Part shown: piece by piece, positions 16,785-64,000 of the stretch | How positions within the stretch are numbered: the stretch's first letter is position 1 | How the letters are laid out: every line of letters begins with the position of its first letter | From: an uncultured bacterium | Lineage (GTDB): Bacteria > Fidelibacterota > Marinisomatia > Marinisomatales > JACNKV01 | DNA length: 64,000 bases | Direction of reading: 5' to 3' | NCBI GenBank assembly: GCA_964645915.1 | Contig: CAZYDH010000002.1 | Location: 19,465-83,464, forward strand | Made by a program: the position numbers and the translations under genes | The notes under the pieces: generated by a model | Databases searched by the model: none | What the model was told of the DNA's origin: nothing | Seen by the model: only the letters and a program-made list of their open reading frames with translations

Positions 16785-16785
16785 G

Positions 16786-17397: not shown

Positions 17398-17410
17398 GGA
17401 GGCGGATACA

Positions 17411-50200: not shown

Positions 50201-50882
50201 CGGAATAAATTTCTGCCTCATGCAATTCAGAAGCAGATTGATTATAGTACACATTAGAACCGGGATAACCTAAATTTCTTCGGGAAATTTCTTGTCCATT
50301 GAGATATGCAACATATCCATCATCATAATCTAAATTAAAAACAGCTTTTTCAACGATACTCGGATCTTCGATATAAATAGATTTTCTTACAAATACCGAA
50401 ATGGTTTGAGGGATGATTGTATTATCATCTGAATCTCCATAGCCAAAACCACTTTGACCATTTGACCAATTGGAATCATCAAAAGATAATTCTTTCCAAT
50501 GAACTGTCGGGTTGGAATTACCGACAAAATATTTCCATTGATCTCCCCAGTCAATTACAGCATCCCATTGACTGATTATGTCTGTACGATTCTTCTCAGA
50601 AGCGAAAACAACAAGAAATTCTTCCGGTTCTATTAAAAGATCAGGGAACGTCCATTTATCTAAGTCTCCTGCATCATCTGTCAATCCATATCCGGAAAGA
50701 TCAAGATTTGATCCTGAAGAATTGTAAAGCTCGATCCAGTCAGGTGTGTCACCATCTTCATCATAAAGTGTGAAGCCATTACTAGACATAACCTCATTGA
50801 TTTGGATTGATTGTCCAATAACAAAAGTGAGAAACAATAGTATGGATAATAATTTTTTCATTATTGTAATTATATACTCCAT
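47286..50882 (-). CDS. Secreted multidomain LTD-CotH-LTD protein with T9SS C-terminal sorting domain
   Basis: 1198 aa with a signal peptide (MKKLLSILLFLTFVIGQS; the start may be 50861). Approximate residue ranges:
- Lamin-tail-like domain, aa 26-98 (INEVMSSN...DWIELYN).
- Beta-sandwich region with FDDSNWSNGQSGFGYG.
- Chitobiase/Fn3-associated-like segment (IYFTIDGSEPT).
- CotH-kinase-like core, aa 450-800, with WRWILFDTDFGFG.
- Second LTD, aa 935-1075 (VINEINYNS...DWIELHN).
- Terminal LEQNYPNPFNPITTIQFSL...YFYQLK T9SS type-A sorting domain. Confidence 0.8.
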   Translation of the reverse strand: MEYIITIMKKLLSILLFLTFVIGQSIQINEVMSSNGFTLYDEDGDTPDWIELYNSSGSNLDLSGYGLTDDAGDLDKWTFPDLLIEPEEFLVVFASEKNRTDIISQWDAVIDWGDQWKYFVGNSNPTVHWKELSFDDSNWSNGQSGFGYGDSDDNTIIPQTISVFVRKSIYIEDPSIVEKAVFNLDYDDGYVAYLNGQEISRRNLGYPGSNVYYNQSASELHEAEIYSGGFPESIWLDINEVPLIAGENVLAIEVHNYNIYSSDLSCIPFLTFGYNTIQTNVREPNPSINLPIFYLHTNFKINSNGENLILSTPLGETIDSVYTGIIHRDISLGRLLEGDTWGIFSEPTPNSSNNTPPYIGTLLPPGFSQPSGFYPNGQTIYLSLTSEIPNAQIYFTIDGSEPTTSSLLYAYPIPINSNRVVRAKVFLSGWYESKTQSKTYIFDESHPETVPVVFLATDSEHLFNEETGIYEMGSNASPDFPHFGANFWEDWERPIHFEILENDGTGFNANAGVKIFGAWSRGYPQKSMAIFARGQYGPTEFDYPIFPDHSIETFEAFILRNSGNDWISSMLRDGFITGLANGQNVDYQQYRPSIVYLNGEYWGIFNLREKVNEHYLASNHGVDPDQVDLLEGNNSVIHGTNTDYLNLIEYLETHNINDPSVEIALENWMDLDSYLKYQGIQIFSDNRDWPGNNVKYWRDHQPEGKWRWILFDTDFGFGIWDQNAFTYNTLEFASDPNGPGWPNPPWSTYLFRRILQNDHFKHRFINLYCDLINSVLSANHLHQRLDSIVDTIIDLIPHHQERWAIPWGGGCCWGDGSAINWDNDLNTMYNFINYRQVYARIHVRDKFNLPNIALINIQTIPEQGNVQVNSLEISEPNWSGYYFPTVPIYVKALPKNGFDFVGWAEFPDSSAEMNISISDPFYLTALFEPNGQTPGTVVINEINYNSNNAFDPDDWIELHNPGETSIDISNWVVKDDDDGHAFNIPEGTTVLPDQYIIISKDLNQFTYHFPDVVDVVGPIGFGLSGSGDQVRVFDSNGVLIDSVQYDDNTPWPSGPDGNGPTLELVNPSLENSAPESWSASTVDYGTPGLQNSTFEILSITDDYGIPTRISLEQNYPNPFNPITTIQFSLPFASHSEMTIYDITGREIIRLLSANLDVGRHTIQWNGRDHFGKQVSAGLYFYQLKTGEFVETKKMILLK

Positions 50883-50888
50883 ATGGAA

Positions 50889-50909: not shown

Positions 50910-50944
50910 ATAAAATTGATGTAGATCATATTTATTAAAAGATT

Positions 50945-53476
50945 TTATATGACAGTAATCATAACTCTTTGTTTGATATCAACAGAAGAACTTCCGATAA
51001 GGATCTCAAATGTCCCTGACTCGACTTCCCAAGAATGACTTTTGGGGTTATAAAATGAAAATGAATCTTTATCTAAAATGAACTGAACTGTTTTATCTTC
51101 ACCTGGTTGTAACTGAACTTTATCAAATGCTTTGAGTTCTTTGATCGGGCGTGGGAGAGAGGACTCATTATCTGAAACATATAATTGAACAATTTCTTCA
51201 CCATATCGATCTCCGATATTTTTCACTTGAACACTTACAAGTACATTATCATCAATTGTATATGTGCTATTATCAGTTTTGATCTTTTCGTATTCGAATT
51301 CGGTATAAGATAAACCAAATCCAAATGGGAAGCGTGGTTTCTCTGGAGATTTATCCCAATGACGGTAACCTAAGAAAATACCTTCTCCATAAAAAACTTG
51401 ATTATCATTATCATGATCGAAGTAATACTCATAAGTTGGATTATCTTCAATATGATGCTCAAATGATATCGGGAGTTTTCCCGAGGGGTTTGTTTCTCCA
51501 AACAGAATTTCAGCTGCAGCAAGATTTCCTTCCTGACCGGGATACCAAGCCATTAATAGCGCATTAACGTTATCGATCCAACTTTCCATCTCTACATTTC
51601 CGCCTGCGTTCAAGACTACAATAATATTGTCATTTACCTCTGAAATAGAATTGATCAGATTGCTTTGGTCATATGGCATCTCAAATGTACGATCAAATGC
51701 TTCACCTTCCAAAGATGCGTTAAATCCAACCGCCATGATCACTAGGTCAGAGTTTTTTGCTGCTTCAATTGCTCGTGATGGATATTGATCCGGAAGAATG
51801 TCCATTACGGTCTTTTTAACCCCTAATCTAAGTCGTGCATCTCCACCGGCTTGATAATACTCAATGACAACTTTATATTCCTGACCGGCATTTAAAAAAC
51901 ATTCATATTTTGCCCTAGTATCTCCTTGATCTCTCCATAACTCTAACACATTGGTATCATCAATGAGGAGTCGATATCCATCATCCCCGGAGACACCGAT
52001 ACAATAATGTCCGGTTTCATTGGGTGTATAATAACAAGTGAACCGTGCAGAAAAATCAGTTTCCGGAACATCAGGTTTATTCCACATGTCTTCATTGACT
52101 AGAGCCAGTTTACTGTAAAATCCGGAGTAAATACTCTCTCCGGACAATGTTTTTCCTTTGAAAAAGTCCACGTTTACTCCTTTAAGTTGTTTACCATCAT
52201 CATAGACATAAAAATCGAAATCATTAAATATTCCTTCAGGAAATTCCACTCCGGTGAAAATTCCTTTTTCAAAAATAATGTCCAATTTATTGTCGGTAGT
52301 TTGCTTAATAGCATCGACCAATGATAATGGATATCTTGGTTCAACAGTTGAACTTCCTCCTCCACCGGTAACTGCAGGATGTCCATTTGGTCCGATAATT
52401 GCGATCGAATTGATATTATCTGCTTGAAGGGGAAGTATTTGATCTCTGTTTTTAAGGAGAACCATACCACCTCGTGCAGCCGCTAAAGAAGTTTGTCTGG
52501 CAAATTCATGATCAAACGAATATCCTTTGCTGCGATCTGGATTTTCAAACAATCCAAATCGGTGATAAACAGATAGAATTCGACGGACTTTATCATCAAG
52601 TATTGATTCATCCAATTGACCTGCCTTAATTGCAGGAATCAATGTTTCAGGACTCATCATCTTTCCGGAAGGCATTTCAAGATCAAGTCCACCATTATAG
52701 CATGCTACACCATTATAAGTTGAAACCCAGTCAGAGACAACAAAACCTTCAAATCCCCAATCCTCTTTAAGAATATTATTAACTAAATAATCATGCTCTG
52801 AAGCATGGATACCGTTAATCAGGTTATAACTTGTCATTACAGAAGCAACACTTCCTTCTTGTACAACTGTTTTAAATGCAGGAAGATATATTTCATGCAA
52901 TGTTCTTTCATCCATATCTGAAGAACAGTGATGCCGATTGAATTCTTGATTATTTGCCACATAATGTTTTGCTGTGGCGATCATTTTTTCACTTTGCATT
53001 CCAATCGTATACTCTTTTGCTAGTTGTCCGGCAAGAAAAGGATCTTCACCAAGATATTCAAAATTTCGACCACATAAAGGTAATCGATAGATATTAAACC
53101 CCGGTCCAAGCATAACATGAATATTTTTTGAACGGGCTTCACCGCCGATTGCTTTACCAATATTAAAAGCCAGTTCCTTATCCCATGAAGCAGCAAGATT
53201 GATAGATGCCGGGAAAGCCGTTGCTTTCCCAAAATTTCGAATTCCAACAGGACCGTCTGCCAAATAAGCTTCGGGGATTCCTAAATGTTTATACCCTCTA
53301 ATATTATATCCTTTATATCCTCCGATAAAGTCAATTTTTTCTTCCAACGTCATTTTGGAGATCAATTCATCAACATCTATGTCATTTTGATTATGGATAT
53401 GAATATTGTTTGAGCATCCACTGATGAGAATTAATAGAACAATAAAGAGTAATTGGATATATTTTTTTTGAATCAT
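50945..53476 (-). CDS. Glycoside hydrolase family 3 beta-glucosidase with inserted PA14 domain, predicted lipoprotein
   Basis: Lipobox LILISGCS. GH3 N-terminal barrel with nucleophile motif GFVVSDW. PA14-like insert (FSARFTCYYTPNETGHYCIGVSGDDGYRLLIDD...YYQAGGDARLRLG). C-terminal Fn3-like domain. Confidence 0.88.
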   Translation of the reverse strand: MIQKKYIQLLFIVLLILISGCSNNIHIHNQNDIDVDELISKMTLEEKIDFIGGYKGYNIRGYKHLGIPEAYLADGPVGIRNFGKATAFPASINLAASWDKELAFNIGKAIGGEARSKNIHVMLGPGFNIYRLPLCGRNFEYLGEDPFLAGQLAKEYTIGMQSEKMIATAKHYVANNQEFNRHHCSSDMDERTLHEIYLPAFKTVVQEGSVASVMTSYNLINGIHASEHDYLVNNILKEDWGFEGFVVSDWVSTYNGVACYNGGLDLEMPSGKMMSPETLIPAIKAGQLDESILDDKVRRILSVYHRFGLFENPDRSKGYSFDHEFARQTSLAAARGGMVLLKNRDQILPLQADNINSIAIIGPNGHPAVTGGGGSSTVEPRYPLSLVDAIKQTTDNKLDIIFEKGIFTGVEFPEGIFNDFDFYVYDDGKQLKGVNVDFFKGKTLSGESIYSGFYSKLALVNEDMWNKPDVPETDFSARFTCYYTPNETGHYCIGVSGDDGYRLLIDDTNVLELWRDQGDTRAKYECFLNAGQEYKVVIEYYQAGGDARLRLGVKKTVMDILPDQYPSRAIEAAKNSDLVIMAVGFNASLEGEAFDRTFEMPYDQSNLINSISEVNDNIIVVLNAGGNVEMESWIDNVNALLMAWYPGQEGNLAAAEILFGETNPSGKLPISFEHHIEDNPTYEYYFDHDNDNQVFYGEGIFLGYRHWDKSPEKPRFPFGFGLSYTEFEYEKIKTDNSTYTIDDNVLVSVQVKNIGDRYGEEIVQLYVSDNESSLPRPIKELKAFDKVQLQPGEDKTVQFILDKDSFSFYNPKSHSWEVESGTFEILIGSSSVDIKQRVMITVI

Positions 53477-53483
53477 AATGGTG

Positions 53484-54857
53484 CTATTTGTTATTGTCGT
53501 TTAGTGGAGGTAAAAGTAGATCTTTAAATAATGAATCTTTGTTTCCATCATATGTTTTTACGATTGGATTTTCACCTCTATGAATGTTATTAAATGTTCC
53601 GTTATCTACTAACTCCCATAAGGCATATTTTGCTTTTCCCTCAACGGTGAAAAGTCCAAAATGTGATTCACTTCCTTTTTCTCCACCTTTCCAAGGCTCA
53701 TTGAATGCTTCAAAATAAAAACAGCTTATATTGTTTTGAAAAGTCCACTTTGAGATTGAATCATAATAGAGTTTCATTTTGATTTCATCCGTCGCTCCTG
53801 AGCCGGGAGTTGTATAGATGTCATCGTCTACCGTTGCCCATCCTGTCTCTCCAATATGGATTGGTTTTACGCAATTTATTTCCTGTAGATAATTTTTTAC
53901 CAAATTATATTGATTAACTGCACTTGCAAACGCAGCCTTCAGGCGGGATTGGACAATTTCTTCAGTGGTCTTTTTCTGGTCTTTTTCTGTCAATTGCCAA
54001 AATCCGGGATTCCAATGAGTATCATGAAAAGGATATGTATGAAGTGAAATAAAATCGATTGCATGCAATAGTTCAATTAAAGAATCTTTTCTGTATTGAT
54101 CTTCAGCACCCCAAACTGCAAAATTATCTGAAGAAGTGATCAATACATCTTGTGGAAGTAAGTAACCGTTTACCGGAGCGATTTTTGCCTTTTGTGCATA
54201 GTTAACGTATTTCAAGATAATTTCAGATGATACCCAATGTGCTTGCCAGGTCACCATTGCTTCATTCCCGACTGCAATAATTTTTACGATATCAGGATAC
54301 TTAGAAGCCAATTCGATTGCATAATCCATTTCGGCTATATTTGTTTCAATGTCCTCTTTAGTGTGGTCTACACTATCGGTATATGATCCTGCACACTGTA
54401 TCCATGCACCCAGCATTACATACATTTCAAAATCCGGGTCATCCTGTTTCAATTGATGGATAGCTTCTAAAAGACGTGTGGCATGTAGATATTGCTGAGT
54501 GTCATAAGTCCGTAATAGTTTAATCCCCATTGCAGCCATGATTTTCATATCTTCTTTTAACTCAGCGGTGGATGGACAATAATCATTTTTATCAGGAAGA
54601 TTATCTCCGCGGGTTGGTTTTCGATATCCGGAAAATGATATAGCAGGATATTGTTTGTTTCCTAATAACAAATCTCCGTTATCAAGGGAATAATTGTTTC
54701 TCACTGAAGTTTGAATTTCATTGACCCATTGATCACCCAAGTAATGGTTATCAATGATTTTGGACGAAACATCTATTTGTGGGTATAGAATATTTCCTAC
54801 AAGAACAACCGTCATACTCAATAATGTGAAGTGAAATCGGTTAGAAATAAGCTTCAT
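53484..54857 (-). CDS. Glycoside hydrolase family 17-like (beta-1,3-glucan hydrolase/transglycosylase)
   Basis: N-terminal hydrophobic leader. Clan GH-A barrel with acid/base motif AVGNEAM and nucleophile motif IGETGWAT, the GH17 signature pair (GNE ... ETGW). Confidence 0.7.
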   Translation of the reverse strand: MKLISNRFHFTLLSMTVVLVGNILYPQIDVSSKIIDNHYLGDQWVNEIQTSVRNNYSLDNGDLLLGNKQYPAISFSGYRKPTRGDNLPDKNDYCPSTAELKEDMKIMAAMGIKLLRTYDTQQYLHATRLLEAIHQLKQDDPDFEMYVMLGAWIQCAGSYTDSVDHTKEDIETNIAEMDYAIELASKYPDIVKIIAVGNEAMVTWQAHWVSSEIILKYVNYAQKAKIAPVNGYLLPQDVLITSSDNFAVWGAEDQYRKDSLIELLHAIDFISLHTYPFHDTHWNPGFWQLTEKDQKKTTEEIVQSRLKAAFASAVNQYNLVKNYLQEINCVKPIHIGETGWATVDDDIYTTPGSGATDEIKMKLYYDSISKWTFQNNISCFYFEAFNEPWKGGEKGSESHFGLFTVEGKAKYALWELVDNGTFNNIHRGENPIVKTYDGNKDSLFKDLLLPPLNDNNK

Positions 54858-54869
54858 AGTGATTCTCCT

Positions 54870-57800
54870 TTAAGTTAGAAGAGTATGAGAAATTGAAACG
54901 TTAATTTGTTTAATTTTATTAGCCCTCTGAAAAATAGACGTTGAAATATCTTGGTTGAGTTCGAGCCCACCAATGGTTTCAAGTTCATTGTTAGAGTAAG
55001 TAATTGTTATTTGATTGTTATCAGAGATAGTATAAACAATTGGTGTTTGTACAAATGTGAAAGCCAAATTGTTTTTATGAAGTGATATTGTATTTTTCTC
55101 CCCTGAAATATTGTAGTAAGAAAACTCATTCTCATCTATGAGAAATTCTGATTTTCTAATCAGGTTTGGTTTGAAAATTATATGCCCTTCGTCAACGGTA
55201 ACCCCTAATTCCCCAAACCTGGTAATATAATCTTCTTTTACTTGACCGGTCATCCCGGGTTGTTGGACACCACAATGTTCAGGAGTATGCGAATAGGGGT
55301 CGGTAGGGAAGGCCCCATACAGAGCCGGGTTTTTATGGACACCAATTCCATTTTTAATTTCGTAGTATATGGACTTTAGTTCAGTTAAGGTCTCGGAATC
55401 AGCATTTTCAGATAAAGCGGTATAATAGATTTCATTAACAGCTAAAAGAAGTTTTGAAACCATATGCCAATATATACTTCCTAATCCTTCATATTTAAAG
55501 AACGTTCCTGATCGACCAGTGAATGATTGGTGATCGAATATTTTCTCATAAATATTCAATACATCTAAGATATCCTCTTGAGAAAACCGATTTAATTCTA
55601 CTAATTTATCTTTTAACAGTCTTGAATTACTAAACTGATTGTTGAAATGGATGTTTCCTTCAATATCTACTTCGATAATATCAGTGCTCTGCTCTTGAAT
55701 AAGTTGTTTTAATACGGTTGAGGTATTTGCTAATTCATTCGGAATAATGTTTTTCTCGGTGAAATGTGGTAGTCGCCGGTTTGGATACAGAATATAACTT
55801 TGTTGATCTTCTCTGTATAATGAGCTTGAACGTAGAACTTTTAATAAATCTAAAGCTTTTTTTGTATCTAAATATCTTGAGCTGAGAACAGATACTTGAC
55901 CTTCTAGCATTTCATATAAATGCCTGATCTTAATTCCATTATTTGAATCAAATTGAATCAAATTATATGCATTGTATAAATGGTCTTCCCGTTCATTTAT
56001 TTGAATGGAGTGATCAATGTGCTCCATCCCAATTTCTAGAAATGATAATAGACTTTGAATAGGTAGCGGACTTTTCTTCCCTGAGAATCCATCTGAGTAT
56101 ATACGAGCACGGTGATTTGAACCTGCGGTAGATAAAATATCGGTGATCTTCTTGCGGTCTTGGTCTGATAAGGGTTTAGATAGATAGCTGTGTGTGTTGT
56201 GCAATCCTTCAAATATATGTTGGAATAACTTGATGACCTCATCAGAGATAGAAATTTCACTAATATTTACTTCTTTTAATAAATCTTGTAGGAATGTAGT
56301 ATATCGCCTAAGGTAATATAAAGTAACCATCGATGTCCCATTTCCGACCAATGCATTATTAGCATCATTCCATTCGGGACGTTGAGTATTCATCCAAATC
56401 CCTGCTTCAGGAATAAAATTAGAGAATTTCACTAACATTGGGATTAGGAGTTTTTCAAGCATCGAAACGTGATATAATTCCCCATTTGGGTCATGATGGA
56501 ATTTTCCATCGGTGCCTATCTTTTCTACTCTATCTAAAAGGAGTTTGTTTAGATCAAAGTCAAAATCAACCGTAATGTGATGATCTTTTTGTATTTCAGA
56601 ATATGGTTTAATTTTATAAGGTACATTAGCATAGGAATAGATATTTTTTTCTAAAAGACTGAGTAGCCTTCCCGGGTGATATTTATGTGATATCTCTAAT
56701 AATTTTAGAAGATAAATAATTTGGTGATCTCCCCAGTAACCAATATAGGTCCACGCATCATCCGGATTCAATACTTCCCAATCAAAACCATCACGAACTA
56801 CTCGATATGGGTTATAACCATCAGCAGTAGAAGCATTTAAGAATTTGGTGATCATTCCTTCTATATATTCAGGGAAGGAAATAGCTAGTGCTTCCCAATT
56901 TTGAAAGATATCTCGCCAATTCCCTTGATAGTTTAGCGTTTTTACACCTTGTTCATCTTTTAACTCTATCGAAAAGTTATTCCATGGACGGCTAGGATCT
57001 CCATGCCTTCTGCTAAAACTGAGGGGTAGATACTCAAAATAAAGTCTTTCAAGATCTGGATGATCTATTTTTTTTATCTCCGATATATGAAAATAATCAG
57101 GTAAATGTTCCAACAATGAGTTAAACTGAGATTGTTTAGGCTTATTAGCTTGGTAAATGTATCCTAGAAAATCTTCTTTGCTGATCATATAATTATCATC
57201 AAAGATTCCCCCACGCATAATATTAAATAGTGTGTTTGAGCAATGCCGAAAATTGTTTAGTGTATCGCGAGTTAATTGAATTCCATCTGCCTTGGCAATT
57301 TTCTTGAATAAATTTTTATAGCTTTCTTGAATTGATTGCTGAAGTTTAAAGTTCAAGTCCTTGTCATTAATGATTTTATGCGATAATAATGCTACCTGAG
57401 ATTGGTTTTTATTAATATCAGTTACAAAATTCCATTCTCTTGTTTGGTGCTGGTTCAAAACAAATTCAGTATGGATAAAATAAGCACCGCGACGTGCTCT
57501 AATATTGTTTTCGGGGTTAACCTTCATTGTTTTTCGGAAGGTATCTAACTGTTCTGACGATAATAAAATGGTGGGATCTTGTAATCCAAATGACCAAACA
57601 GTTGTAGCCGTTAATGACTCACTGGGCTCTGCTCGATCAACTGGAATAGAGCTTAACATAAAAAGTCCTAAATTGGAGTCTGGTATCAACTCATTTTTTT
57701 TATATCCGTCAATTAACGTACTATATTCTAATTGGAATTTTCTATCTACTCCTGAAGGAAGAATATTCTGAATCCCATCACACATATTAATTGTGATTTC

Positions 57801-58313
57801 CTCTGAACTGTTATTAATAATTCGTGATCTTTTAACAAATCCAAACTCATCACAATTATACCAGCTATACTGAAAAGTCACATTAAGATCGTGGTTGATC
57901 TCTTCAAAAAGGATATGATTCCCTAAAATATTCTTATACAGATTTCTTTCTAAAGAATATAACCCTTCATACTTATGTGAAAATGGTTCCCATAAAAATG
58001 TTTTATCAGACGTGTGAATAAATACAATAGTTTTACTACCTGTGATTTCAGAGGAATCATGAATTCGGTCATCGGTATAATACGGGAATATGGCATTGTC
58101 AGGGTTTTTTCTACCAGCAGATAAAGCTCCGTTGCTAGAGAGAAACATCCATAGATCAGAATCACTAACGATGCTCATAAAAAAAGGAGGGATTAGATCA
58201 TAATTCGAAATTTGATAATATGGCTTACCATCCAAAGTGACGACTTCACCATGAATATCCTCATTTGAATGTTTAAACTTTGCATTCCCTATATAAATAG
58301 TGTTTTGATTCAT
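54870..58313 (-). CDS. Large cytoplasmic glycoside-phosphorylase-like protein (candidate GH94/GH149/GH161-class beta-glucan phosphorylase)
   Basis: 1147 aa with no signal peptide or TM segment. It is embedded between GH genes with 12-13 nt gaps. The RPEWNDANN motif (aa 645-653, nt 56355-56381) resembles the xDWND catalytic-Asp motif of GH94-type phosphorylases as I recall it. Size matches the roughly 1100-aa beta-1,3- and beta-1,2-oligoglucan phosphorylases. Family not verified. Confidence 0.45.
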   Translation of the reverse strand: MNQNTIYIGNAKFKHSNEDIHGEVVTLDGKPYYQISNYDLIPPFFMSIVSDSDLWMFLSSNGALSAGRKNPDNAIFPYYTDDRIHDSSEITGSKTIVFIHTSDKTFLWEPFSHKYEGLYSLERNLYKNILGNHILFEEINHDLNVTFQYSWYNCDEFGFVKRSRIINNSSEEITINMCDGIQNILPSGVDRKFQLEYSTLIDGYKKNELIPDSNLGLFMLSSIPVDRAEPSESLTATTVWSFGLQDPTILLSSEQLDTFRKTMKVNPENNIRARRGAYFIHTEFVLNQHQTREWNFVTDINKNQSQVALLSHKIINDKDLNFKLQQSIQESYKNLFKKIAKADGIQLTRDTLNNFRHCSNTLFNIMRGGIFDDNYMISKEDFLGYIYQANKPKQSQFNSLLEHLPDYFHISEIKKIDHPDLERLYFEYLPLSFSRRHGDPSRPWNNFSIELKDEQGVKTLNYQGNWRDIFQNWEALAISFPEYIEGMITKFLNASTADGYNPYRVVRDGFDWEVLNPDDAWTYIGYWGDHQIIYLLKLLEISHKYHPGRLLSLLEKNIYSYANVPYKIKPYSEIQKDHHITVDFDFDLNKLLLDRVEKIGTDGKFHHDPNGELYHVSMLEKLLIPMLVKFSNFIPEAGIWMNTQRPEWNDANNALVGNGTSMVTLYYLRRYTTFLQDLLKEVNISEISISDEVIKLFQHIFEGLHNTHSYLSKPLSDQDRKKITDILSTAGSNHRARIYSDGFSGKKSPLPIQSLLSFLEIGMEHIDHSIQINEREDHLYNAYNLIQFDSNNGIKIRHLYEMLEGQVSVLSSRYLDTKKALDLLKVLRSSSLYREDQQSYILYPNRRLPHFTEKNIIPNELANTSTVLKQLIQEQSTDIIEVDIEGNIHFNNQFSNSRLLKDKLVELNRFSQEDILDVLNIYEKIFDHQSFTGRSGTFFKYEGLGSIYWHMVSKLLLAVNEIYYTALSENADSETLTELKSIYYEIKNGIGVHKNPALYGAFPTDPYSHTPEHCGVQQPGMTGQVKEDYITRFGELGVTVDEGHIIFKPNLIRKSEFLIDENEFSYYNISGEKNTISLHKNNLAFTFVQTPIVYTISDNNQITITYSNNELETIGGLELNQDISTSIFQRANKIKQINVSISHTLLT

Positions 58314-58326
58314 AAGACTACTCGTT

Positions 58327-59592
58327 TCATTTCACTGTGAAGGGGATATTGGCATGACCGCCATTTCCACTTTCATCAAATACAAAGACGAACAAACGAT
58401 AATGCCCGGATTCTTTAGGGGTGTTAAAAACCAATGAATCTTTCGTTTGATTTATAACAGCATATTCTGCGATGGGAGGTTTCTTTTCCTCATCTCCACC
58501 ATCCTTTTTATCAATGGCTTCATGTAAGATTTCCCACAAAACAGATACTGTGCTTCCTTCAGGATCGTTTGCCCAAACAACCGCTTTATGAGCAGATTCA
58601 GGAGAGAAGGTAAGGTTTGAATAGGCGCTTTTGTTATCGATTCGAAGTGAATCCAAAATCGGAGATCTATCATTAGGCCATTGATTATTCCACACATAAT
58701 GCAATACGTCTACAGATTGAGTTTTTGCTCCATCTGATAGAAACAAACTGTACCAGGTTGATGTCCTCTCTTGTTTATTCCCCCAGAAAAAAACATATCC
58801 GCCCAAGCAGTTTGAATGAGGGAGAATGTCTTCTCTATATTCCTTTTCGTATAACTCGGCTTTTTCTTTACTAGTAAACTCAATTGGTTCACCCCAACTT
58901 GTTTTTGCAACTTCCCAATGACCAAATGGTCCCCATTCTCCCAGGATATAAGGTTTTGTCCAGCCGAAGTCTTCCAACCAATCATTGACAACGGGTATTC
59001 CCGCATAGGCATTCACACCTAGAATATCAATACTGGGACATTGTTTTTGTATGAGTTCTGCTTCTCGTCTTTCAATAAAGGCAGTTGTGGTCATCGTAGG
59101 ATGGTTGCCATCAACTTCATGTATATACCGAGCAAATTCTTCGACTGCATTCCAAACAGTGGTATCTGTATAAAAAGAATTTAATTCATTTCCAATTCCC
59201 CACATCAATAAGTTAGGATGATCTTTATATTTTAGGATGTAGGGTTTATATTTTTCAAATTGTTGTTTAACAGCGTCAGGATCACTATAATCAAATCCTT
59301 GTCGTTCCTGAACAAGCCAAATTCCGGCACAGACATAAAAGTTGTATTTCTCCGCCATTTCGAAGATTTCGTTCCACTTATCTACACCCCAAGTCCGTAT
59401 AGAGTTAGCTCCACTCGCGGCTAATATATCATAATGGTCATCAATTCCTGCACCTATAATGTAAAAGGGTTCTCCATTAACTTGTAATTGATACCCTGTA
59501 TCTGTTTTTAATATTTTTACCGAGGATCCATCCTTGGAATAACCGGGGACCGTAAGAAAAATCGATAGAAGTAAAATAATCGAGTTTTTCAT
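58327..59592 (-). CDS. Secreted clan GH-A glycoside hydrolase with C-terminal beta-sandwich (GH158-like or GH2/GH5-like; candidate endo-beta-1,3-glucanase)
   Basis: Signal peptide. TIM-barrel motifs MWGIGNELN (acid/base NE) and ILGEWGPF (candidate nucleophile E). A C-terminal Ig-like region of about 110 aa. The architecture and size (421 aa) fit the GH158 description. The family call is tentative. Confidence 0.5.
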   Translation of the reverse strand: MKNSIILLLSIFLTVPGYSKDGSSVKILKTDTGYQLQVNGEPFYIIGAGIDDHYDILAASGANSIRTWGVDKWNEIFEMAEKYNFYVCAGIWLVQERQGFDYSDPDAVKQQFEKYKPYILKYKDHPNLLMWGIGNELNSFYTDTTVWNAVEEFARYIHEVDGNHPTMTTTAFIERREAELIQKQCPSIDILGVNAYAGIPVVNDWLEDFGWTKPYILGEWGPFGHWEVAKTSWGEPIEFTSKEKAELYEKEYREDILPHSNCLGGYVFFWGNKQERTSTWYSLFLSDGAKTQSVDVLHYVWNNQWPNDRSPILDSLRIDNKSAYSNLTFSPESAHKAVVWANDPEGSTVSVLWEILHEAIDKKDGGDEEKKPPIAEYAVINQTKDSLVFNTPKESGHYRLFVFVFDESGNGGHANIPFTVK

Positions 59593-59607
59593 GGTCTTTG
59601 TATTAGT

Positions 59608-61854
59608 TTACCTAATTACCTCAAACTTAGCGAACAGTCCACTATCAGAATCCGGAGCTATCCACACATGAAATGTACCGGGTTCGGTTACCAATTTCAT
59701 TTCTGGATTATAAAAAGCCAGATCGCTAGTGTTTAAAGTGAATTGAACAGTTTGTGATTCTCCTGGTTGAAGTTGAATCCTTTTGAATCTTCTTAACTCT
59801 TTTACAGGTGGGGTAATACTGGCAACTAAATCACGAGTATATAACTGAACTACCTCTTCAGCTTTAACATGTCCATCGTTTCTAATAACTGCTGAAATTG
59901 TAATATCTTTACCCATTTGCACAATAGAGTCCGAAAGTGTGGGATTGGAATAACTGAAATTCGTATAGGAAAGTCCGTACCCAAAAGGAAATTGCGGTTT
60001 ATATCCGGCATCTAAATAGTGAGATTCATTCCCAAGAGACGTTTGCCACATGCGAACCGGAATATCATCTATATGAACATAAGTATCCTCGTTAGGAGGT
60101 CTGCCCGTATTTTTATGATTATAATACATGGGTATTTGTCCTACAACTTTAGGGAAAGTAACAGGAAGTTTACCCGAAGGGCATTCTTTACCAAAAAGTA
60201 GATCAACAATTGCCGGTCCACCCATAGTTCCTGGATGGAAGGAGAAGAGGACAGCATCAACTTTATCAAGAATGTTTCCCATGGTTAATGGTCTGCCTGC
60301 CATCACGATGAGGACAATAGGTTTGCCTGTTTGATGTAATTGTAAGATCAGCTCTTCTTGTGCTCCGGGAAGATTTATATTAGCTCTACAATGTGCTTCT
60401 CCGGTAATAATGGCTTCTTCTCCAGCAAAAAATAAAATCACATCAGATTTTTCAGCTGCTGATATTGCTTCTTTGAAATAAGTATCTTCAGTGGATCGGG
60501 AAATTTCTAATCCTTTGGAATAATGAATGTTCAAATCACTGCTATAGATATCATTGAGCGCATCCATTGGAGTTTTGGAATCCTCAATATTTTGATCAAA
60601 AGACCAAGTCCCAAGCTGTTCATAAGGATCGTCAGCAAATGGTCCGATTACTGCGATGTCTTTAATGTTTTTAGAAAGGGGTAATATGTTCTGATCATTT
60701 TTTAACATCACGATACTTTGTATAGCGGATTCTTTTGCCATACTCAAATAATCTTCATTAACCATTTTTGGGAATTGATCAGTATCTACAAAAGGATTTT
60801 CAAATAACCCCAATTCGAACTTTAATCGTAATATATTCCGGACAGCCTCATCAATAAGTTTGATGTCAACTTCTCCTGAATTTACAAGCTCTTGTAAATA
60901 ATCTTCATAATCTGTTGAAGCCATCTCCATGTCTACTCCAGCGGTCAATGCTTTTTGAGCAGTAGCTTTTTCATCTGCACAGTATCCGTGCGCAATCATT
61001 TCATGGATAGATGCCCAGTCACTGACCACAACTCCATTCCAATCCCATTCCTGACGTAAAATGTCTCTTAATAAAAATGAGTTTCCTGTGGAGGGAATTC
61101 CATTTACATCATGAAATCCAGCCATTAATGTTTTTACTCCGACTTCTGCGCTAGCCTGGAAAGGTTTTAAATAGACCTCTCTAAGAAGTTGTTCGGGAAT
61201 GTAAGCTGTATTATAATCTCTTCCGCCTTCACCACCTCCATATCCGACATAATGTTTAGCGCAGGCGGCAATAGATTCGGGATTTGACGGATCATCTGAT
61301 TGAAATCCTTTTATCATAGCCACCGCCATTTGACTGGTTAAGTAGTGATCTTCACCAAAGGATTCAGCGATTCTACCCCATCTTGGATCTCTTGAAATAT
61401 CCATCATGGGTCCAAATGTCCACTTAATTCCAACTGAAGCTGCTTCAGAAGCTGCAACTCGTGCTCCTTGCTCGACTAAGTCAGTATTCCAAGTTGCTGC
61501 AAGTCCGATTGGAATTGGGAAAATTGTGCGAAATCCATGAATTACATCCCGTGCAATAAGTAAGGGAATACCATGCGGGCTTTCTTCAACAGCGAGTTTT
61601 TGAAGAGTTTTTATTTTTTCTGGATCGGTTACATTCAAGATGGATCCAATTTTTCCTGCTTTTACACCTTCATAGTTCCAATCAGCTCCACTCCGCTGAC
61701 ACATTTGACCGATTTTATCTTGAAGTGACATTTCTTTAAGTAAGCGATCAATTTTTACTTCCATATCATTGACTTCGTTAGACATGTTAAACCCGATTGT
61801 ATGAATTAAAAATAGTATCGGATAAATGAGTTTAAATTTCATTGAGAACCTCAT
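59608..61854 (-). CDS. Glycoside hydrolase family 3 beta-glucosidase (BglX-like), periplasmic
   Basis: Signal peptide, the KIGQM N-terminal motif, nucleophile motif GVVVSDW, a C-terminal alpha/beta sandwich and an Fn3-like domain. The start may be the internal ATG at 61842. Confidence 0.9.
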   Translation of the reverse strand: MRFSMKFKLIYPILFLIHTIGFNMSNEVNDMEVKIDRLLKEMSLQDKIGQMCQRSGADWNYEGVKAGKIGSILNVTDPEKIKTLQKLAVEESPHGIPLLIARDVIHGFRTIFPIPIGLAATWNTDLVEQGARVAASEAASVGIKWTFGPMMDISRDPRWGRIAESFGEDHYLTSQMAVAMIKGFQSDDPSNPESIAACAKHYVGYGGGEGGRDYNTAYIPEQLLREVYLKPFQASAEVGVKTLMAGFHDVNGIPSTGNSFLLRDILRQEWDWNGVVVSDWASIHEMIAHGYCADEKATAQKALTAGVDMEMASTDYEDYLQELVNSGEVDIKLIDEAVRNILRLKFELGLFENPFVDTDQFPKMVNEDYLSMAKESAIQSIVMLKNDQNILPLSKNIKDIAVIGPFADDPYEQLGTWSFDQNIEDSKTPMDALNDIYSSDLNIHYSKGLEISRSTEDTYFKEAISAAEKSDVILFFAGEEAIITGEAHCRANINLPGAQEELILQLHQTGKPIVLIVMAGRPLTMGNILDKVDAVLFSFHPGTMGGPAIVDLLFGKECPSGKLPVTFPKVVGQIPMYYNHKNTGRPPNEDTYVHIDDIPVRMWQTSLGNESHYLDAGYKPQFPFGYGLSYTNFSYSNPTLSDSIVQMGKDITISAVIRNDGHVKAEEVVQLYTRDLVASITPPVKELRRFKRIQLQPGESQTVQFTLNTSDLAFYNPEMKLVTEPGTFHVWIAPDSDSGLFAKFEVIR

Positions 61855-61869
61855 GAATTTATAAATGTT

Positions 61870-63294
61870 TTACTCAACGTATTCTTTACGAGTAGCTAAC
61901 TCTGCACGGTTTTCAGCAGCTTTTTGTTCATCAATATCGTAAGAGTTCATTACCCACATCGCGATAAGAGTTCCTAGAATTGGTAACCCGGAATAGAAAA
62001 TTCGCATTCCGGTTATTGCACTCTCTGGATTGTTAGGTCCCTGTTCAAATCCTACAAGCGACATAATTACCCCGCTAAGCAAACCTGCAATAGCTAATCC
62101 GAATTTTACCATCCACCAATAAATTGCACCCAAAACACCTTCGCGACGCTTACCGGTGTTGATTTCATCTAAATCGCAAACATCGGCAGTCATAGACATC
62201 ATTAGCGTAAATAGACCCCCTATACCAAATGAGAAAAATGGAAGAGCTATAAGAAACATATAAGGTTTTCCAGGAATAAATAAGAACCAAAATAATATAT
62301 AACCGATAATGGAAATACCTTGTGAAAGAAGAAAGGTCTTTTTCTTGCCAAATATTTTGGAAACTTTTGCAACAATTGGAATAACTACAAATGTTGTAAC
62401 AAGAGCCCCCACACATCCATGAAGTGTTGGCCAAATACCGGCGGCGCTTGCATCTCCATTAAACAAATAGTATACAATAATGAAAAAGGAAAATGCTGCA
62501 ACAGTATTAAAAGCGTTAAAAACCAAGAAAGTCGCAATACACAGTTTTCGAAACGGTTTATTTTGGAATGCTATCTTAAATCCTTTGAAGATATCGACTG
62601 CGCTGTTACCGATATTACCTCTGGTAAGCGGCATCAATGAATCATCATTTAAAGTAGATTTACTTTTAACGAACACTGCGGGCACCATGGCAAGTAGCAT
62701 ACAGATCACCCCGATCCAAATGGCAACTTCTCTACTGCCAGCATCGGCACTTTCAAACCAGTTAGGATCGTAGAGTATTACCCAGAACCATGGAGCAATT
62801 ACCCAAGCCCATTGCCCAATCCACTGAGCTACGGCCATTATGCTCGTTCGCTCATGAAAATCGTTACTCATCTCATAGCCCATAGCTACATAAGGCACAC
62901 TAAAGATGGTTAAGCCAAGATAAAATACAAATGAGAATAATAGAAAATATATAAAGTTGTAACTCACTCCGTTTTCAGGATATAATTGCCACATTAAACT
63001 AAATGAAGCACCCATTATCAATGCCCCAAGAAAAACCCACTGTCTGCGTCTTCCCCATTTTGAACGGGTATTGTCTGAAATAAATCCCATGATAGGATCG
63101 GTAATGGCATCAAACACTCTAGGAAGAAAGAAAATGATTCCCCAAAGTAATGGTGGGAATCCCAGATCTTGAACTAACACTACCATTAAGATTCCTAACG
63201 CAGCTGGGAACATTTGGTTTGCTAGCATTCCTAAACCAAATGCTAATTTCTGTCCGAAGGCAACTTTATCCTGAGTTTCTATCGCGTGTGACAT
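61870..63294 (-). CDS. Glycoside-pentoside-hexuronide (GPH):cation symporter family MFS transporter
   Basis: 474 aa with about 12 TM segments. The signature DAITDPIMGFISDNTRSKWGRRRQW matches the GPH D..DP..G...D.T....GR.RPW motif. Confidence 0.88.
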   Translation of the reverse strand: MSHAIETQDKVAFGQKLAFGLGMLANQMFPAALGILMVVLVQDLGFPPLLWGIIFFLPRVFDAITDPIMGFISDNTRSKWGRRRQWVFLGALIMGASFSLMWQLYPENGVSYNFIYFLLFSFVFYLGLTIFSVPYVAMGYEMSNDFHERTSIMAVAQWIGQWAWVIAPWFWVILYDPNWFESADAGSREVAIWIGVICMLLAMVPAVFVKSKSTLNDDSLMPLTRGNIGNSAVDIFKGFKIAFQNKPFRKLCIATFLVFNAFNTVAAFSFFIIVYYLFNGDASAAGIWPTLHGCVGALVTTFVVIPIVAKVSKIFGKKKTFLLSQGISIIGYILFWFLFIPGKPYMFLIALPFFSFGIGGLFTLMMSMTADVCDLDEINTGKRREGVLGAIYWWMVKFGLAIAGLLSGVIMSLVGFEQGPNNPESAITGMRIFYSGLPILGTLIAMWVMNSYDIDEQKAAENRAELATRKEYVE

Positions 63295-63352
63295 AATTTT
63301 ATTCTATTAGTACTTTGTTTTGTAAGAATGGTTTGATTTAATTAGGAAAATC

Positions 63353-64000
63353 TTATTGGCCGGGTTTTGTGCTGGAGCGAATACTTAATGAAACAGGAAC
63401 TAAATTGATATGCCCGTGACTATCGTTTTCCCCTTGATATTTCTTTTCCAATAAACGTATTGAAGCTTTGCCAAGTTCGTAGAAATTTGTATTAACTGAT
63501 GTCAATTCTGGATTATAAATTTTACAAAATGGAAGATCATCATATCCGGCTAAGGCAAAATCTTTAGGGATATTTCTTCCATCCTGTATGGCTTTTTTAA
63601 TAAATCCAAAACACATTTGATCGTTAGAGCCAAATATAGCAATATTGGACAAACCTTGGTCTTTAATGTCTTTATAGGCATGATATCCGGAACCAATTGA
63701 GTAATCGCCCTTAAATCTCCAGACATTATTTAATTTTTTTGAAACAGATACATAGTCTAGAAATCCATTTTTTCTATAGAGAGCTTCCACTTTATTTGAA
63801 GGTCCGGTAATAATTCCAACGTTAGTATATCCTAATTCTTCAAAGTGTTTTGCAACCATATATCCACCACGATAGGCGTCAAATGTGACCGTGTCAATTA
63901 CCGGATTTACAATGGGCGCAAGAGAGATAATGGGATAGTCACCTATAGCTTTTTTGATCTTTTTATAATCTTTCACACCAAATTCGGGCAGGAAGAGACA
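63353..64000 (-). CDS. LacI-family transcriptional regulator (C-terminal sugar-binding domain; N-terminal HTH lies beyond the window)
   Basis: Periplasmic-binding-protein-like fold with ALAGYDDLP and PELTSV motifs typical of LacI/GalR effector domains. The reading frame stays open to nt 64000, so the gene is truncated by the window edge. Confidence 0.8.
   Translation of the reverse strand, partial: CLFLPEFGVKDYKKIKKAIGDYPIISLAPIVNPVIDTVTFDAYRGGYMVAKHFEELGYTNVGIITGPSNKVEALYRKNGFLDYVSVSKKLNNVWRFKGDYSIGSGYHAYKDIKDQGLSNIAIFGSNDQMCFGFIKKAIQDGRNIPKDFALAGYDDLPFCKIYNPELTSVNTNFYELGKASIRLLEKKYQGENDSHGHINLVPVSLSIRSSTKPGQ

What the first reader, a model, noticed from the sequence alone, without database searches (positions are those of the whole stretch)
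50945..64000. SusC/SusD-less beta-1,3-glucan (laminarin-type) utilisation operon built on a GPH symporter and a cytoplasmic phosphorylase-like giant
Seven co-directional minus-strand genes follow each other, and six of them are packed with only 7-15 nt between them. The order is:
- LacI regulator, separated by a 58-nt gap from
- GPH symporter
- periplasmic GH3
- secreted clan GH-A enzyme (GH158-like)
- leaderless 1147-aa phosphorylase-like protein
- GH17-like enzyme
- GH3-PA14 lipoprotein

GH17 together with GH3 points to beta-1,3-glucans such as laminarin. The neighbouring gene carries a T9SS sorting domain, which suggests an FCB-group organism. In that group glycan loci are normally organised around SusC/SusD pairs, and none is present in this window.

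The implied route is surface or periplasmic trimming, oligosaccharide/cation symport, then ATP-sparing phosphorolysis in the cytoplasm. This differs from the canonical PUL design.
Basis: partly seen in the sequence, partly recalled or inferred. Interest (0 to 1): 0.6.

Follow-up and report, generated by a model that had tools for sequence, protein, structure and literature searches.

The report
Laminarin-degradation operon of a SAR406 bacterium
This is one arm of a fairly standard gene cluster for eating the algal storage sugar laminarin, found in an uncultured marine SAR406 (Fidelibacterota) bacterium; its outer-membrane import genes are not missing, they lie just past the end of the window.

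Summary
Seven co-directional minus-strand genes lie at the stated coordinates, with gaps of 58 nt and then 15, 15, 13, 12 and 7 nt.

The organism is a Fidelibacterota (Marinimicrobia/SAR406) bacterium, not a Bacteroidota, so a missing SusC/SusD pair is expected. The same contig, recovered from metagenomes, continues beyond base 64000 with a divergent arm:
- a Na+/solute symporter
- a TonB-dependent transporter
- a 1154-aa T9SS cargo protein
- a PorV paralogue
- two GH16 laminarinases
- a GH5-CBM6 enzyme

The system therefore does have dedicated outer-membrane uptake. It matches the SusCD-less GH149 clusters already described in Gammaproteobacteria (TonB receptor + GH16 + GH17 + MFS + GH149).

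GH149, GH17, GH158, GH3 and an MFS transporter are the canonical laminarin gene set. I rate this a new member of a known kind, of modest interest. The more novel lead is off-window: the conserved transporter / T9SS-cargo / PorV triad that sits where SusD would be.

The parts
63353..64000 (-). LacI-family regulator, C-terminal 215 codons only. The gene runs off the window end. The full protein is 333 aa and has an N-terminal LacI helix-turn-helix.
   Evidence: Peripla_BP_3 78.4 bits. The complete gene is at L003 8941-9942, with PF00356 LacI 28.9 bits and Peripla_BP_3. L003 is identical to the window over the last 3 kb.
63295..63352 (-). 58-nt spacer between the LacI stop and the GPH start. No operator-like palindrome and no terminator were found here.
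61870..63294 (-). GPH-family (MFS_2) sugar:cation symporter, 474 aa. It is the predicted inner-membrane importer of laminari-oligosaccharides.
   Evidence: PF13347 237.3 bits. TIGR00792 194.8 bits, below its cut-off of 231. It is 70-75% identical to the MFS of flavobacterial laminarin PULs.
59608..61854 (-). GH3 beta-glucosidase of the BglX type, 748 aa, with an N-terminal signal peptide. Predicted periplasmic.
   Evidence: GH3 N, GH3 C and Fn3-like domains. NF011678 686.7 bits against a cut-off of 666. Best PDB matches are the periplasmic beta-glucosidases 5XXL, 3U48 and 6R5I.
58327..59592 (-). GH158 endo-beta-1,3-glucanase homologue, 421 aa, with a signal peptide.
   Evidence: PDB 9ORO (GH158) 3.6e-90 and 6PAL (BuGH158) 6.8e-72, aligned over residues 23-420. 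The GNE and E(W/F)GP catalytic motifs are conserved.
54870..58313 (-). GH149 beta-1,3-glucan phosphorylase, 1147 aa, with no signal peptide. Predicted cytoplasmic.
   Evidence: NF058639 1650.6 bits against a cut-off of 1150. PDB 6HQ6 (Pro_7066) 1191 bits. The active-site motifs R467-D468, W648-N649-D650 and H950 are present.
53484..54857 (-). GH17 beta-1,3-glucanase, 457 aa, with an N-terminal hydrophobic leader.
   Evidence: PDB 6FCG (a GH17-family glycoside hydrolase; identified from my own knowledge as Formosa FbGH17A) E 1.6e-120. The GNEAMV and GETGW motifs are conserved. Pfam PF00332 gives only 24 bits, below its 28.2 cut-off.
50945..53476 (-). GH3 beta-glucosidase with an inserted PA14 domain, 843 aa. 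Lipoprotein (lipobox ISGC).
   Evidence: GH3 N, GH3 C, PA14 and Fn3-like domains. Best PDB matches are 7MS2 and 3ABZ. N-terminus shown.
47286..50882 (-). Possible eighth gene: a 1198-aa T9SS-secreted CotH + lamin-tail-domain protein. It is co-directional and starts 62 nt after the GH3-PA14 gene. Its function is unknown.
   Evidence: Domains. Homologues sit beside GH149, GH3 or GH16 genes in L007, L071, L105, L126, L148 and L150.

Best explanation
The seven genes form the left arm of a divergently organised beta-1,3-glucan (laminarin) utilisation locus. It lies on the chromosome of an uncultured marine Fidelibacterota (Marinimicrobia/SAR406) bacterium.

Proposed route:
1. Outside the cell, GH16 laminarinases, at least one of them T9SS-secreted, a T9SS-secreted GH5-CBM6 enzyme and a T9SS-anchored CBM9 protein bind and cut laminarin. 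These genes lie on the right arm, beyond base 64000.
2. A TonB-dependent transporter on that arm imports the oligosaccharides.
3. In the periplasm, GH158, GH17 and the two GH3 enzymes shorten and debranch them.
4. The GPH symporter carries short laminari-oligosaccharides across the inner membrane, and the SSF symporter carries glucose.
5. In the cytoplasm, GH149 phosphorolyses the oligosaccharides to alpha-glucose-1-phosphate. This saves one ATP per glucosyl unit.
6. The LacI protein sits between the two arms and probably represses both until an oligosaccharide inducer appears.

What is shown: the gene content and order, the family memberships and catalytic motifs, the physical continuity with the right arm, the taxonomy, and the conservation of the module.

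What is inferred: substrate, cellular locations, direction of the GH149 reaction, coupling ion, regulation, and co-transcription.
For: Families and motifs.

Contig continuation:
- Six metagenome loci differ from the window at 0 or 1 position over its last 3 kb.
- L167 shows this order: SSF, CBM9-T9SS, transporter, 1154-aa protein, PorV-like, 498-aa protein, GH16, GH16-T9SS, GH5-CBM6-T9SS.
- The first GH16 matches the laminarinase 3ILN at 1.6e-64.

Taxonomy:
- The 90%-identity cluster of the GPH protein holds proteins named Candidatus Marinimicrobia / Neomarinimicrobiota.
- Named homologues of the transporter and the 1154-aa protein carry the same labels.
- The best genome hit for GH149, GH17 and GH158 is a Neomarinimicrobiota MAG.
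- The lineage is confirmed.

Conservation:
- GH149-GH17 adjacency in 59 of 80 loci and a GPH transporter in 62 of 80.
- The transporter occurs beside the 1154-aa gene in 71 of 80 marine loci, the CBM9-T9SS gene in 50 and LacI in 29.
- Among the 37 loci long enough to judge, the PorV-like and ~498-aa genes are present in 37 of 37 and GH16 in 25 of 37.

Other support:
- Published biochemistry and gene contexts for GH149: PMC5827456 and PMC6771811.
- The canonical laminarin family set: PMC10108472 and 10.64898/2026.01.10.698779.
- Na+-NQR genes in the window fit Na+-coupled symport.
Against: - No expression or biochemical data exist for this organism.
- A perfect 34-nt hairpin separates the CBM9 gene from the transporter gene. 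The transporter unit may therefore be transcribed separately, and its link to the left arm rests on proximity and conserved synteny only.
- No convincing LacI operator was found. The only candidate is a TGCAAAT-N22-ATTTGCA inverted repeat in the LacI/SSF spacer.
- Promoter and terminator scans gave no more hits than shuffled sequence.
- GH149 reactions are reversible, and some GH17 enzymes are transglycosylases.
- The GPH protein scores below the TIGR00792 cut-off, so its substrate and coupling ion are open.
Confidence: 0.8

Rival explanations
1. The operon is a self-contained scavenging system for small, already-hydrolysed beta-1,3-oligosaccharides that diffuse through porins. It has no dedicated outer-membrane uptake, and the nearby TonB-dependent transporter module is unrelated.
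For: - A strong hairpin lies between the CBM9 gene and the transporter gene.
- The transporter and the 1154-aa protein are more conserved (58-88% identity) than their neighbours and sit next to varying CAZyme sets.
- Type I GH149 clusters without any outer-membrane transporter exist in Proteobacteria (PMC5827456).
Against: - The transporter module is flanked on both sides by beta-1,3-glucan genes in this contig and in three relatives examined gene by gene.
- GH16 follows the module in at least 25 of 37 related loci.
- A LacI gene lies divergently next to the module in 29 loci.
Confidence: 0.12
2. The locus targets a different beta-glucan (mixed-linkage beta-1,3/1,4, beta-1,6 pustulan, bacterial or fungal curdlan-type glucan). 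Alternatively it works anabolically, with GH149 and a GH17 transglycosylase building or remodelling beta-1,3-glucans.
For: - GH149 phosphorolysis is reversible (PMC5827456).
- The only other GH17 structures matched are beta-1,3-glucanosyltransferases (4WTP).
- GH16 relatives in the PDB include beta-1,3(4)-glucanases.
- A GH5-CBM6 enzyme of unknown specificity is present.
Against: - The GH17 matches the PDB chain 6FCG (deposited only as 'Glycoside hydrolase, GH17 family'; from my own knowledge Formosa FbGH17A, a laminarin-degrading enzyme) at E 1.6e-120, against only about 1e-6 for the transferases.
- Secreted endo-glucanases, uptake transporters and a LacI repressor are the signature of catabolism.
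- There is no glycosyltransferase in the locus.
- The family set matches published, expressed laminarin PULs.
Confidence: 0.06
3. It is an ordinary Bacteroidota-type PUL whose SusC/SusD pair lies further away on the contig.
For: - The transporter has the N-terminal carboxypeptidase-regulatory-like domain that SusC proteins also carry.
Against: - The NCBIfam scan of the transporter returned no SusC/RagA model among its 16 hits.
- No SusD family was found in any of the 12 genes of L167.
- The partner protein is all-beta and T9SS-secreted.
- The organism is Fidelibacterota.
Confidence: 0.02

Closest known systems
Type II GH149 gene clusters of Alteromonadales and PUL-like laminarin loci of bloom Gammaproteobacteria (Kuhaudomlarp et al. 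2018, PMC5827456; Sidhu et al. 2023, PMC10108472)
   Same: - Both have a TonB-dependent receptor without SusD, GH16, GH17, an inner-membrane MFS_2 (PF13347) transporter and a cytoplasmic GH149, sometimes with GH158.
- A Porticoccaceae locus in my own set (L081) carries GH149, GPH (58% identical), GH158 and GH17 side by side.
   Different: - The phylum here is Fidelibacterota.
- The regulator is LacI rather than a histidine kinase/response regulator or an ECF sigma factor.
- The extracellular components carry T9SS sorting domains.
- The transporter is translationally coupled to a 1154-aa T9SS cargo protein and a PorV paralogue.
- There are two GH3 enzymes and an SSF symporter.
Flavobacterial laminarin PUL, 'variant 1' (for example Formosa sp. 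Hel1_33_131, locus L034)
   Same: - The GH149 then GH17 gene order is identical.
- The GH17 matches the PDB chain 6FCG at E 1.6e-120. From my own knowledge that chain is the Formosa enzyme FbGH17A, and its 430-aa length equals the GH17-position ORF in L034.
- The GPH symporter is 70-75% identical to the flavobacterial one.
- The substrate logic is the same.
   Different: - Formosa has a pair of ORFs of 1045 and 487 aa upstream, read as SusC/SusD from their sizes and my own knowledge, not tested with family models.
- Formosa has a 778-aa ORF at the MFS position, consistent with the MFS-GH17 fusion reported for Formosa (PMC10108472).
- Formosa has a 495-aa ORF between the GH17 and MFS genes that I did not annotate. 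GH30 is reported for this PUL type in PMC10108472.
- The window has a stand-alone GPH gene, LacI control, and no SusC/SusD.
Pro_7066, the structurally characterised bacterial GH149 (PDB 6HQ6/6HQ8)
   Same: - The alignment runs end to end (1191 bits).
- The RD and WND motifs and the histidine are all conserved.
- Neither protein has a signal peptide.
   Different: - The chain-length preference of the window protein is unknown.
- Conservation of the surface binding-site residues (the YE motif) was not examined.
BuGH158 of the Bacteroides uniformis beta-1,3-glucan locus (PDB 6PAL)
   Same: - Same two-domain architecture, aligned over residues 26-420, E 6.8e-72.
   Different: - From my own knowledge, BuGH158 is a surface lipoprotein. 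The window protein has a signal peptide without a lipobox cysteine, so it is more probably periplasmic.

Membership tests
GH149 beta-1,3-glucan phosphorylase | Full-length similarity to characterised members, above the curated cut-off | tested here: met
   NF058639 equivalog model 1650.6 bits against a cut-off of 1150, covering residues 17-1141. PDB 6HQ6 1191 bits over residues 8-1142.
GH149 beta-1,3-glucan phosphorylase | Active-site RD motif, WND catalytic loop with the catalytic Asp, and the phosphate-site His (R470/D471, W651/N652/D653, H959 in Pro_7066) | tested here: met
   NWRDIFQNW (R467-D468), PEWNDANN (W648-N649-D650) and SIYWHMV (H950) are present and aligned with Pro_7066.
GH149 beta-1,3-glucan phosphorylase | Phosphorolysis of beta-1,3-gluco-oligosaccharides to alpha-glucose-1-phosphate | not testable with these tools
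   Needs a recombinant enzyme assay.
GH17 | Similarity to characterised GH17 enzymes, with both catalytic glutamates | tested here: met
   6FCG E 1.6e-120. The GNEAMV and GETGW motifs are conserved in the alignment. Pfam PF00332 alone is below its threshold (24 against 28.2 bits).
GH158 | Similarity over the TIM barrel plus the C-terminal Ig-like domain to BuGH158 and GH158(Pro) | tested here: met
   9ORO 3.6e-90 and 6PAL 6.8e-72, aligned over residues 23-420 of 421.
GH3 beta-glucosidase | GH3 N-terminal and C-terminal domains plus an Fn3-like domain | tested here: met
   Both proteins have these domains. The 748-aa protein passes the BglX cut-off (686.7 against 666). The 843-aa protein has a PA14 insert at residues 434-552. 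Linkage specificity was not tested.
GPH (glycoside-pentoside-hexuronide):cation symporter, TC 2.A.2 | Match to the family models | tested here: inconclusive
   Pfam MFS_2 237.3 bits, far above its cut-off of 27. TIGR00792 194.8 bits, below its cut-off of 231.35. Substrate and coupling ion cannot be tested here.
LacI-family repressor | N-terminal LacI helix-turn-helix plus a periplasmic-binding-protein-like effector domain | tested here: met
   In the complete 333-aa protein from L003: PF00356 28.9 bits (cut-off 27) and PF13377 76.8 bits. The window holds only the effector domain.
LacI-family repressor | Palindromic operator in the regulated promoters | tested here: inconclusive
   Only an AT-rich inverted repeat, TGCAAAT-N22-ATTTGCA, was found in the LacI/SSF spacer. 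Nothing was found in the other spacers.
Canonical Bacteroidota PUL | SusC-type TonB-dependent transporter | tested here: not met
   The 891-aa transporter hits only generic TonB-receptor models, all far below their cut-offs. No SusC/RagA model appears among them. Its Pfam domains are CarbopepD_reg_2, Plug, TonB_dep_Rec_b-barrel and OMP_b-brl_4.
Canonical Bacteroidota PUL | Adjacent SusD-like lipoprotein (from my own knowledge, an alpha-helical TPR fold) | tested here: not met
   The gene after the transporter encodes a 1154-aa protein with no Pfam hit. Its model is almost entirely beta-strand, with mean pLDDT 88.4, and it has a T9SS sorting-domain-like C-terminus. No SusD family was found in any of the 12 genes of L167.
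Type II GH149 cluster (Kuhaudomlarp 2018) | GH149 co-located with a TonB-dependent receptor, GH16, GH17 and an MFS (PF13347) transporter | tested here: met
   All five are present within about 27 kb on one contig. The regulator type differs: LacI here, against a histidine kinase/response regulator in the published type.

The most novel reading that the evidence does not exclude
Marine Fidelibacterota (SAR406) may replace the SusC/SusD pair with a different surface apparatus. It would consist of an Oar-like TonB-dependent transporter, a 1154-aa all-beta protein and a dedicated PorV paralogue.
- The transporter gene's stop overlaps the start of the 1154-aa gene.
- The 1154-aa protein has Ca-binding-type and Fn3-like segments and is exported by the type IX secretion system.
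- The PorV paralogue follows directly, then a conserved ~498-aa protein.

On this reading, the PorV paralogue would hold the T9SS cargo at the transporter, where it would act as the glycan-capturing lid or binding partner. Together with the T9SS-secreted CBM9 protein and GH16 enzymes, and perhaps the CotH-LTD protein, this would be a T9SS-built, SusD-independent laminarin import machine in one of the most abundant dark-ocean lineages.
Probability: 0.3. Interest if true: 0.65.

Novelty: new member of a known kind. Interest (0 to 1): 0.35.

Why it matters
Laminarin is one of the largest fluxes of labile carbon in the ocean. Its bacterial consumption has been mapped mainly to Flavobacteriia and some Gammaproteobacteria.

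SAR406/Fidelibacterota are abundant below the photic zone and in oxygen-minimum waters, and their carbohydrate metabolism is poorly described. In the papers I could search:
- An earlier survey of SAR406 genomes listed GH3, GH5, GH16, GH30, CBM6, CBM9 and T9SS-tagged proteins, but read them as cellulose, agar and xylan genes (10.1101/095471).
- Only one Fidelibacterota laminarinase has been characterised (PMC12296878).

A complete and widely conserved laminarin locus in this lineage would make them credible consumers of sinking algal glucan.

For glycobiology, the seven-gene operon itself adds nothing new in principle. The off-window transporter / T9SS-cargo / PorV module is the part worth following up.

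Tried and rejected
- Promoter and terminator consensus scans over 47000-64000 gave no more hits than shuffled sequence: 63 against 66 promoter-like sites and 13 against 10.8 terminator-like sites. They say nothing about transcription units.
- An Rfam scan of the whole window found nothing.
- The LacI operator search in all spacers found one AT-rich inverted repeat only. I do not claim an operator.
- A sequence search of the PDB found nothing for the duplicated N-terminal domain of the CBM9-T9SS protein or for the 1154-aa protein.
- A Foldseek search of the 1154-aa model against the PDB gave only partial, low-TM matches. PorZ (5M11, E 1.2e-7) and PorU (6ZA2) were best, with TM no higher than 0.13. 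That fits a multidomain T9SS surface protein but gives no function.
I reached it through a homology search instead.
- I rejected the idea that the GH149 giant is novel: it is a textbook family member.
- I rejected the SusC reading of the transporter.
- I rejected an anabolic reading of the locus.


Full report
**Observation**

The ORF list shows seven co-directional minus-strand ORFs in 50945-64000:

| Coordinates | Length |
|---|---|
| 50945-53476 | 843 aa |
| 53484-54857 | 457 aa |
| 54870-58313 | 1147 aa |
| 58327-59592 | 421 aa |
| 59608-61854 | 748 aa |
| 61870-63294 | 474 aa |
| 63353 to beyond the window end | cut off |

The spacers are 7, 12, 13, 15 and 15 nt, and then 58 nt between the regulator and the transporter.

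An eighth co-directional gene (47286-50882, 1198 aa) follows after 62 nt. It carries CotH, lamin-tail, CHB_HEX_C and T9SS sorting domains.

The rest of the window is chromosomal housekeeping: nuoLMN, Na+-NQR, a CitMHS transporter, dxs, methylmalonyl-CoA mutase, cytochrome c assembly, tilS, ftsH, menF/D/C-E and rsgA. It holds no TonB-dependent receptor, SusC or SusD.

**Identity of the genes**

- **The 1147-aa 'giant' is a GH149 beta-1,3-glucan phosphorylase.**
  - It scores 1650.6 bits on the NCBIfam equivalog model NF058639, whose cut-off is 1150.
  - It aligns end to end with the crystallised enzyme Pro_7066 (6HQ6, 1191 bits).
  - It keeps the published active-site elements. R467-D468, W648-N649-D650 and H950 correspond to R470/D471, W651/N652/D653 and H959 of Pro_7066 (PMC6771811).
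  - It has no signal peptide.
- **The 457-aa protein is GH17.** It matches the PDB chain 6FCG, deposited as a GH17-family glycoside hydrolase and known to me as the laminarin enzyme FbGH17A of Formosa, at E 1.6e-120. Both catalytic-glutamate motifs are present.
- **The 421-aa protein is GH158.** It matches 9ORO at 3.6e-90 and BuGH158 (6PAL) at 6.8e-72 over its whole length.
- **The 748-aa protein is a BglX-type periplasmic GH3** (686.7 bits against a cut-off of 666).
- **The 843-aa protein is a GH3 with an inserted PA14 domain** and an ISGC lipobox.
- **The transporter is an MFS_2/GPH protein** (237 bits on PF13347). It scores below the TIGR00792 cut-off.
- **The regulator is LacI-type.** The complete protein is 333 aa and has the helix-turn-helix.

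**Organism**

- The transporter's 90%-identity cluster (464 members) contains proteins that NCBI names 'Candidatus Marinimicrobia' or 'Neomarinimicrobiota' bacterium.
- The named homologues of two off-window proteins carry the same label.
- The best genomic match for GH149 (57%), GH17 (67%), GH158 (60%) and the CotH protein (41%) is a Neomarinimicrobiota MAG.
- NCBI taxonomy files this phylum as Fidelibacterota within the FCB group.

The expectation of SusC/SusD was not. To my knowledge SusD-like proteins are essentially restricted to Bacteroidota, so their absence here is not a departure from the norm of this lineage.

**What lies beyond base 64000**

An exact-protein look-up found the same contig in many metagenome assemblies. 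Six loci differ from the window at 0 or 1 position over its last 3 kb. A second look-up, through the identical transporter protein, extended the view further.

A divergent arm starts 127 nt from the LacI start codon. In order it encodes:

1. An SSF Na+/solute symporter (539 aa).
2. A 1186-aa protein with a duplicated N-terminal domain, a CBM9-like domain and a T9SS sorting domain.
3. A perfect 34-nt hairpin.
4. An 891-aa TonB-dependent transporter (CarbopepD_reg, Plug, barrel, OMP_b-brl_4).
5. A 1154-aa protein whose start overlaps the transporter's stop.
6. A 364-aa PorV paralogue, also overlapping (PDB 6H3I_F, E 2.9e-8).
7. A 498-aa protein.
8. A GH16 whose best PDB match is the laminarinase 3ILN at 1.6e-64.
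9. A second GH16 with a T9SS sorting domain.
10. A GH5-CBM6-T9SS enzyme.

The transporter does not match any SusC/RagA model, and no SusD family appears in the locus.

**Is that arm really part of the system?**

Among 80 related marine metagenome loci found with the 1154-aa protein:
- the transporter is adjacent in 71
- the CBM9-T9SS gene is present in 50
- a divergent LacI gene is present in 29

Of the 37 loci with enough downstream sequence:
- all 37 have the PorV-like and the ~498-aa genes
- at least 25 continue with GH16
- 16 continue with the GH5 gene

Three relatives annotated gene by gene show GH16-PA14, GH16-malectin-T9SS, GH3, GH30 and a GH149 homologue around the same module. The transporter module is therefore consistently embedded in beta-1,3-glucan genes in this lineage.

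The caveat is the hairpin. It suggests a separate transcript, and I could not identify a LacI operator.

**Mechanism**

The best-supported reading has these steps:
1. T9SS-delivered GH16 and GH5 enzymes and CBM proteins capture and cut laminarin outside the cell.
2. The TonB-dependent transporter imports the oligosaccharides.
3. GH158, GH17 and the two GH3 enzymes trim them in the periplasm.
4. The GPH symporter takes up short laminari-oligosaccharides, and the SSF symporter takes up glucose.
5. GH149 phosphorolyses the oligosaccharides in the cytoplasm to alpha-glucose-1-phosphate. This enters glycolysis through phosphoglucomutase without spending ATP.

The Na+-NQR genes in the window make Na+ coupling plausible.

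Gene content, family membership and synteny are shown. Locations, substrates, ion coupling, regulation and co-transcription are inferred from the characterised families.

**Comparison with what is known**

- Kuhaudomlarp et al. 2018 (PMC5827456) established GH149 and sorted bacterial GH149 contexts into three groups:
  - Type I: ABC transporter plus LacI or AraC.
  - Type II: TonB-dependent receptor, GH16, GH17, PF13347 MFS transporter and regulators.
  - Bacteroidetes PULs, together with 'CAZyme clusters lacking susCD' that carry GH3/GH30 and GH17/GH16.
- Sidhu et al. 2023 (PMC10108472) use GH149, GH17, GH16, GH30 and GH158 as the laminarin PUL signature. They describe expressed, SusD-less gammaproteobacterial versions, some of them with GH158.
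- A 2026 preprint lists GH3, GH16, GH17, GH30, GH149 and GH158 as the laminarin set.
- In my own comparison, the GH149 then GH17 order equals that of the Formosa sp. Hel1_33_131 PUL (L034). A Porticoccaceae locus (L081) has GH149, GPH, GH158 and GH17 together.

The window's locus therefore passes the Type II definition and fails the canonical SusC/SusD definition. It is a new member of a known kind, in a phylum where such loci have scarcely been described. For that phylum I found only a generic CAZyme inventory and one characterised GH16 in the searchable literature.

**The more unusual part**

The protein sitting where SusD would be is a 1154-aa protein.
- It belongs to a large family: at least 3000 representatives at 50% identity clustering, 422 of them at E <= 1e-30.
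- It has no Pfam or PDB sequence match.
- An AlphaFold2 model built on 48 sequences is confident (mean pLDDT 88.4, pTM 0.75) and almost entirely beta-strand.
- Its last ~110 residues match a profile of the locus's own T9SS sorting domains (hhalign probability 96.3%, E 1.8e-9).
- The best Foldseek matches are the T9SS surface proteins PorZ and PorU, but with TM no higher than 0.13.

With a PorV paralogue encoded immediately after it, a transporter / T9SS-cargo / PorV surface complex is an attractive hypothesis. It is untested.

The CotH-LTD-T9SS gene at 47286-50882 also recurs next to GH149, GH3 or GH16 genes in other Fidelibacterota and in an Ignavibacteriaceae MAG. It may belong to the system.

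**Verdict**

The families, the substrate and the inner pathway are right. The claims of 'no outer-membrane machinery' and 'differs from the normal design of its group' are wrong.
- Novelty: new member of a known kind.
- Interest: about 0.35, mostly for the ecological point (SAR406 as laminarin consumers) and for the off-window transporter module.

Noticed in passing
window 47286-50882 (minus strand): A 1198-aa T9SS-secreted protein with CotH kinase-like, two lamin-tail and CHB_HEX_C/Fn3-associated domains follows the operon after 62 nt. A small hairpin (TTACCGA-TTTAT-TCGGTAA) lies just before its start. Homologues (41-49% identity) sit beside GH149, GH3 or GH16 clusters in L007, L071, L105, L126, L148 and L150. 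Its role in glycan use is unknown.
   Followed up: partly
L167 10001-18801 (off-window, same contig): The genes for the TonB-dependent transporter, the 1154-aa T9SS cargo protein and the PorV paralogue overlap stop-to-start. A conserved 498-aa protein follows. The four-gene module is present in 37 of 37 related marine loci long enough to judge. The 1154-aa family has thousands of members and no annotation.
   Followed up: partly
window 61870-63294: The GPH symporter is 70-75% identical to the MFS of Flavobacteriaceae laminarin PULs. In Formosa (L034) the ORF at that position is 778 aa, consistent with the MFS-GH17 fusion reported for Formosa in PMC10108472. It is only 25% identical to the MFS in the closest Neomarinimicrobiota GH149 locus, whereas GH149 and GH17 are about 50% identical to the flavobacterial ones. 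This suggests lateral transfer of the transporter or unusually strong constraint.
   Followed up: no
L003 3580-3613 (off-window): A perfect 34-nt palindrome, AAAATGGGGGTCAAATTAATTTGACCCCCATTTT, lies between the CBM9-T9SS gene and the transporter gene. It looks like a bidirectional intrinsic terminator.
   Followed up: no
L003 3623-7183 (off-window): The 1186-aa CBM9-T9SS protein carries two near-identical ~155-aa N-terminal repeats (motif GTWMMAQQEGALKVGPAPGDGSWW...). They have no Pfam or PDB sequence match and are a candidate new glycan-binding module.
   Followed up: partly
window 7834-18631: Both a proton-pumping NADH dehydrogenase (nuoL/M/N) and a Na+-translocating NQR (nqrA, nqrF) are encoded side by side. 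This is relevant to Na+-coupled sugar symport.
   Followed up: no
window 45342-47294: A single 650-aa ORF combines o-succinylbenzoate synthase (MenC-like, N-terminal half) and o-succinylbenzoate-CoA ligase (MenE-like, C-terminal half). It appears to be a gene fusion within a menF/menD/menC-E cluster.
   Followed up: no
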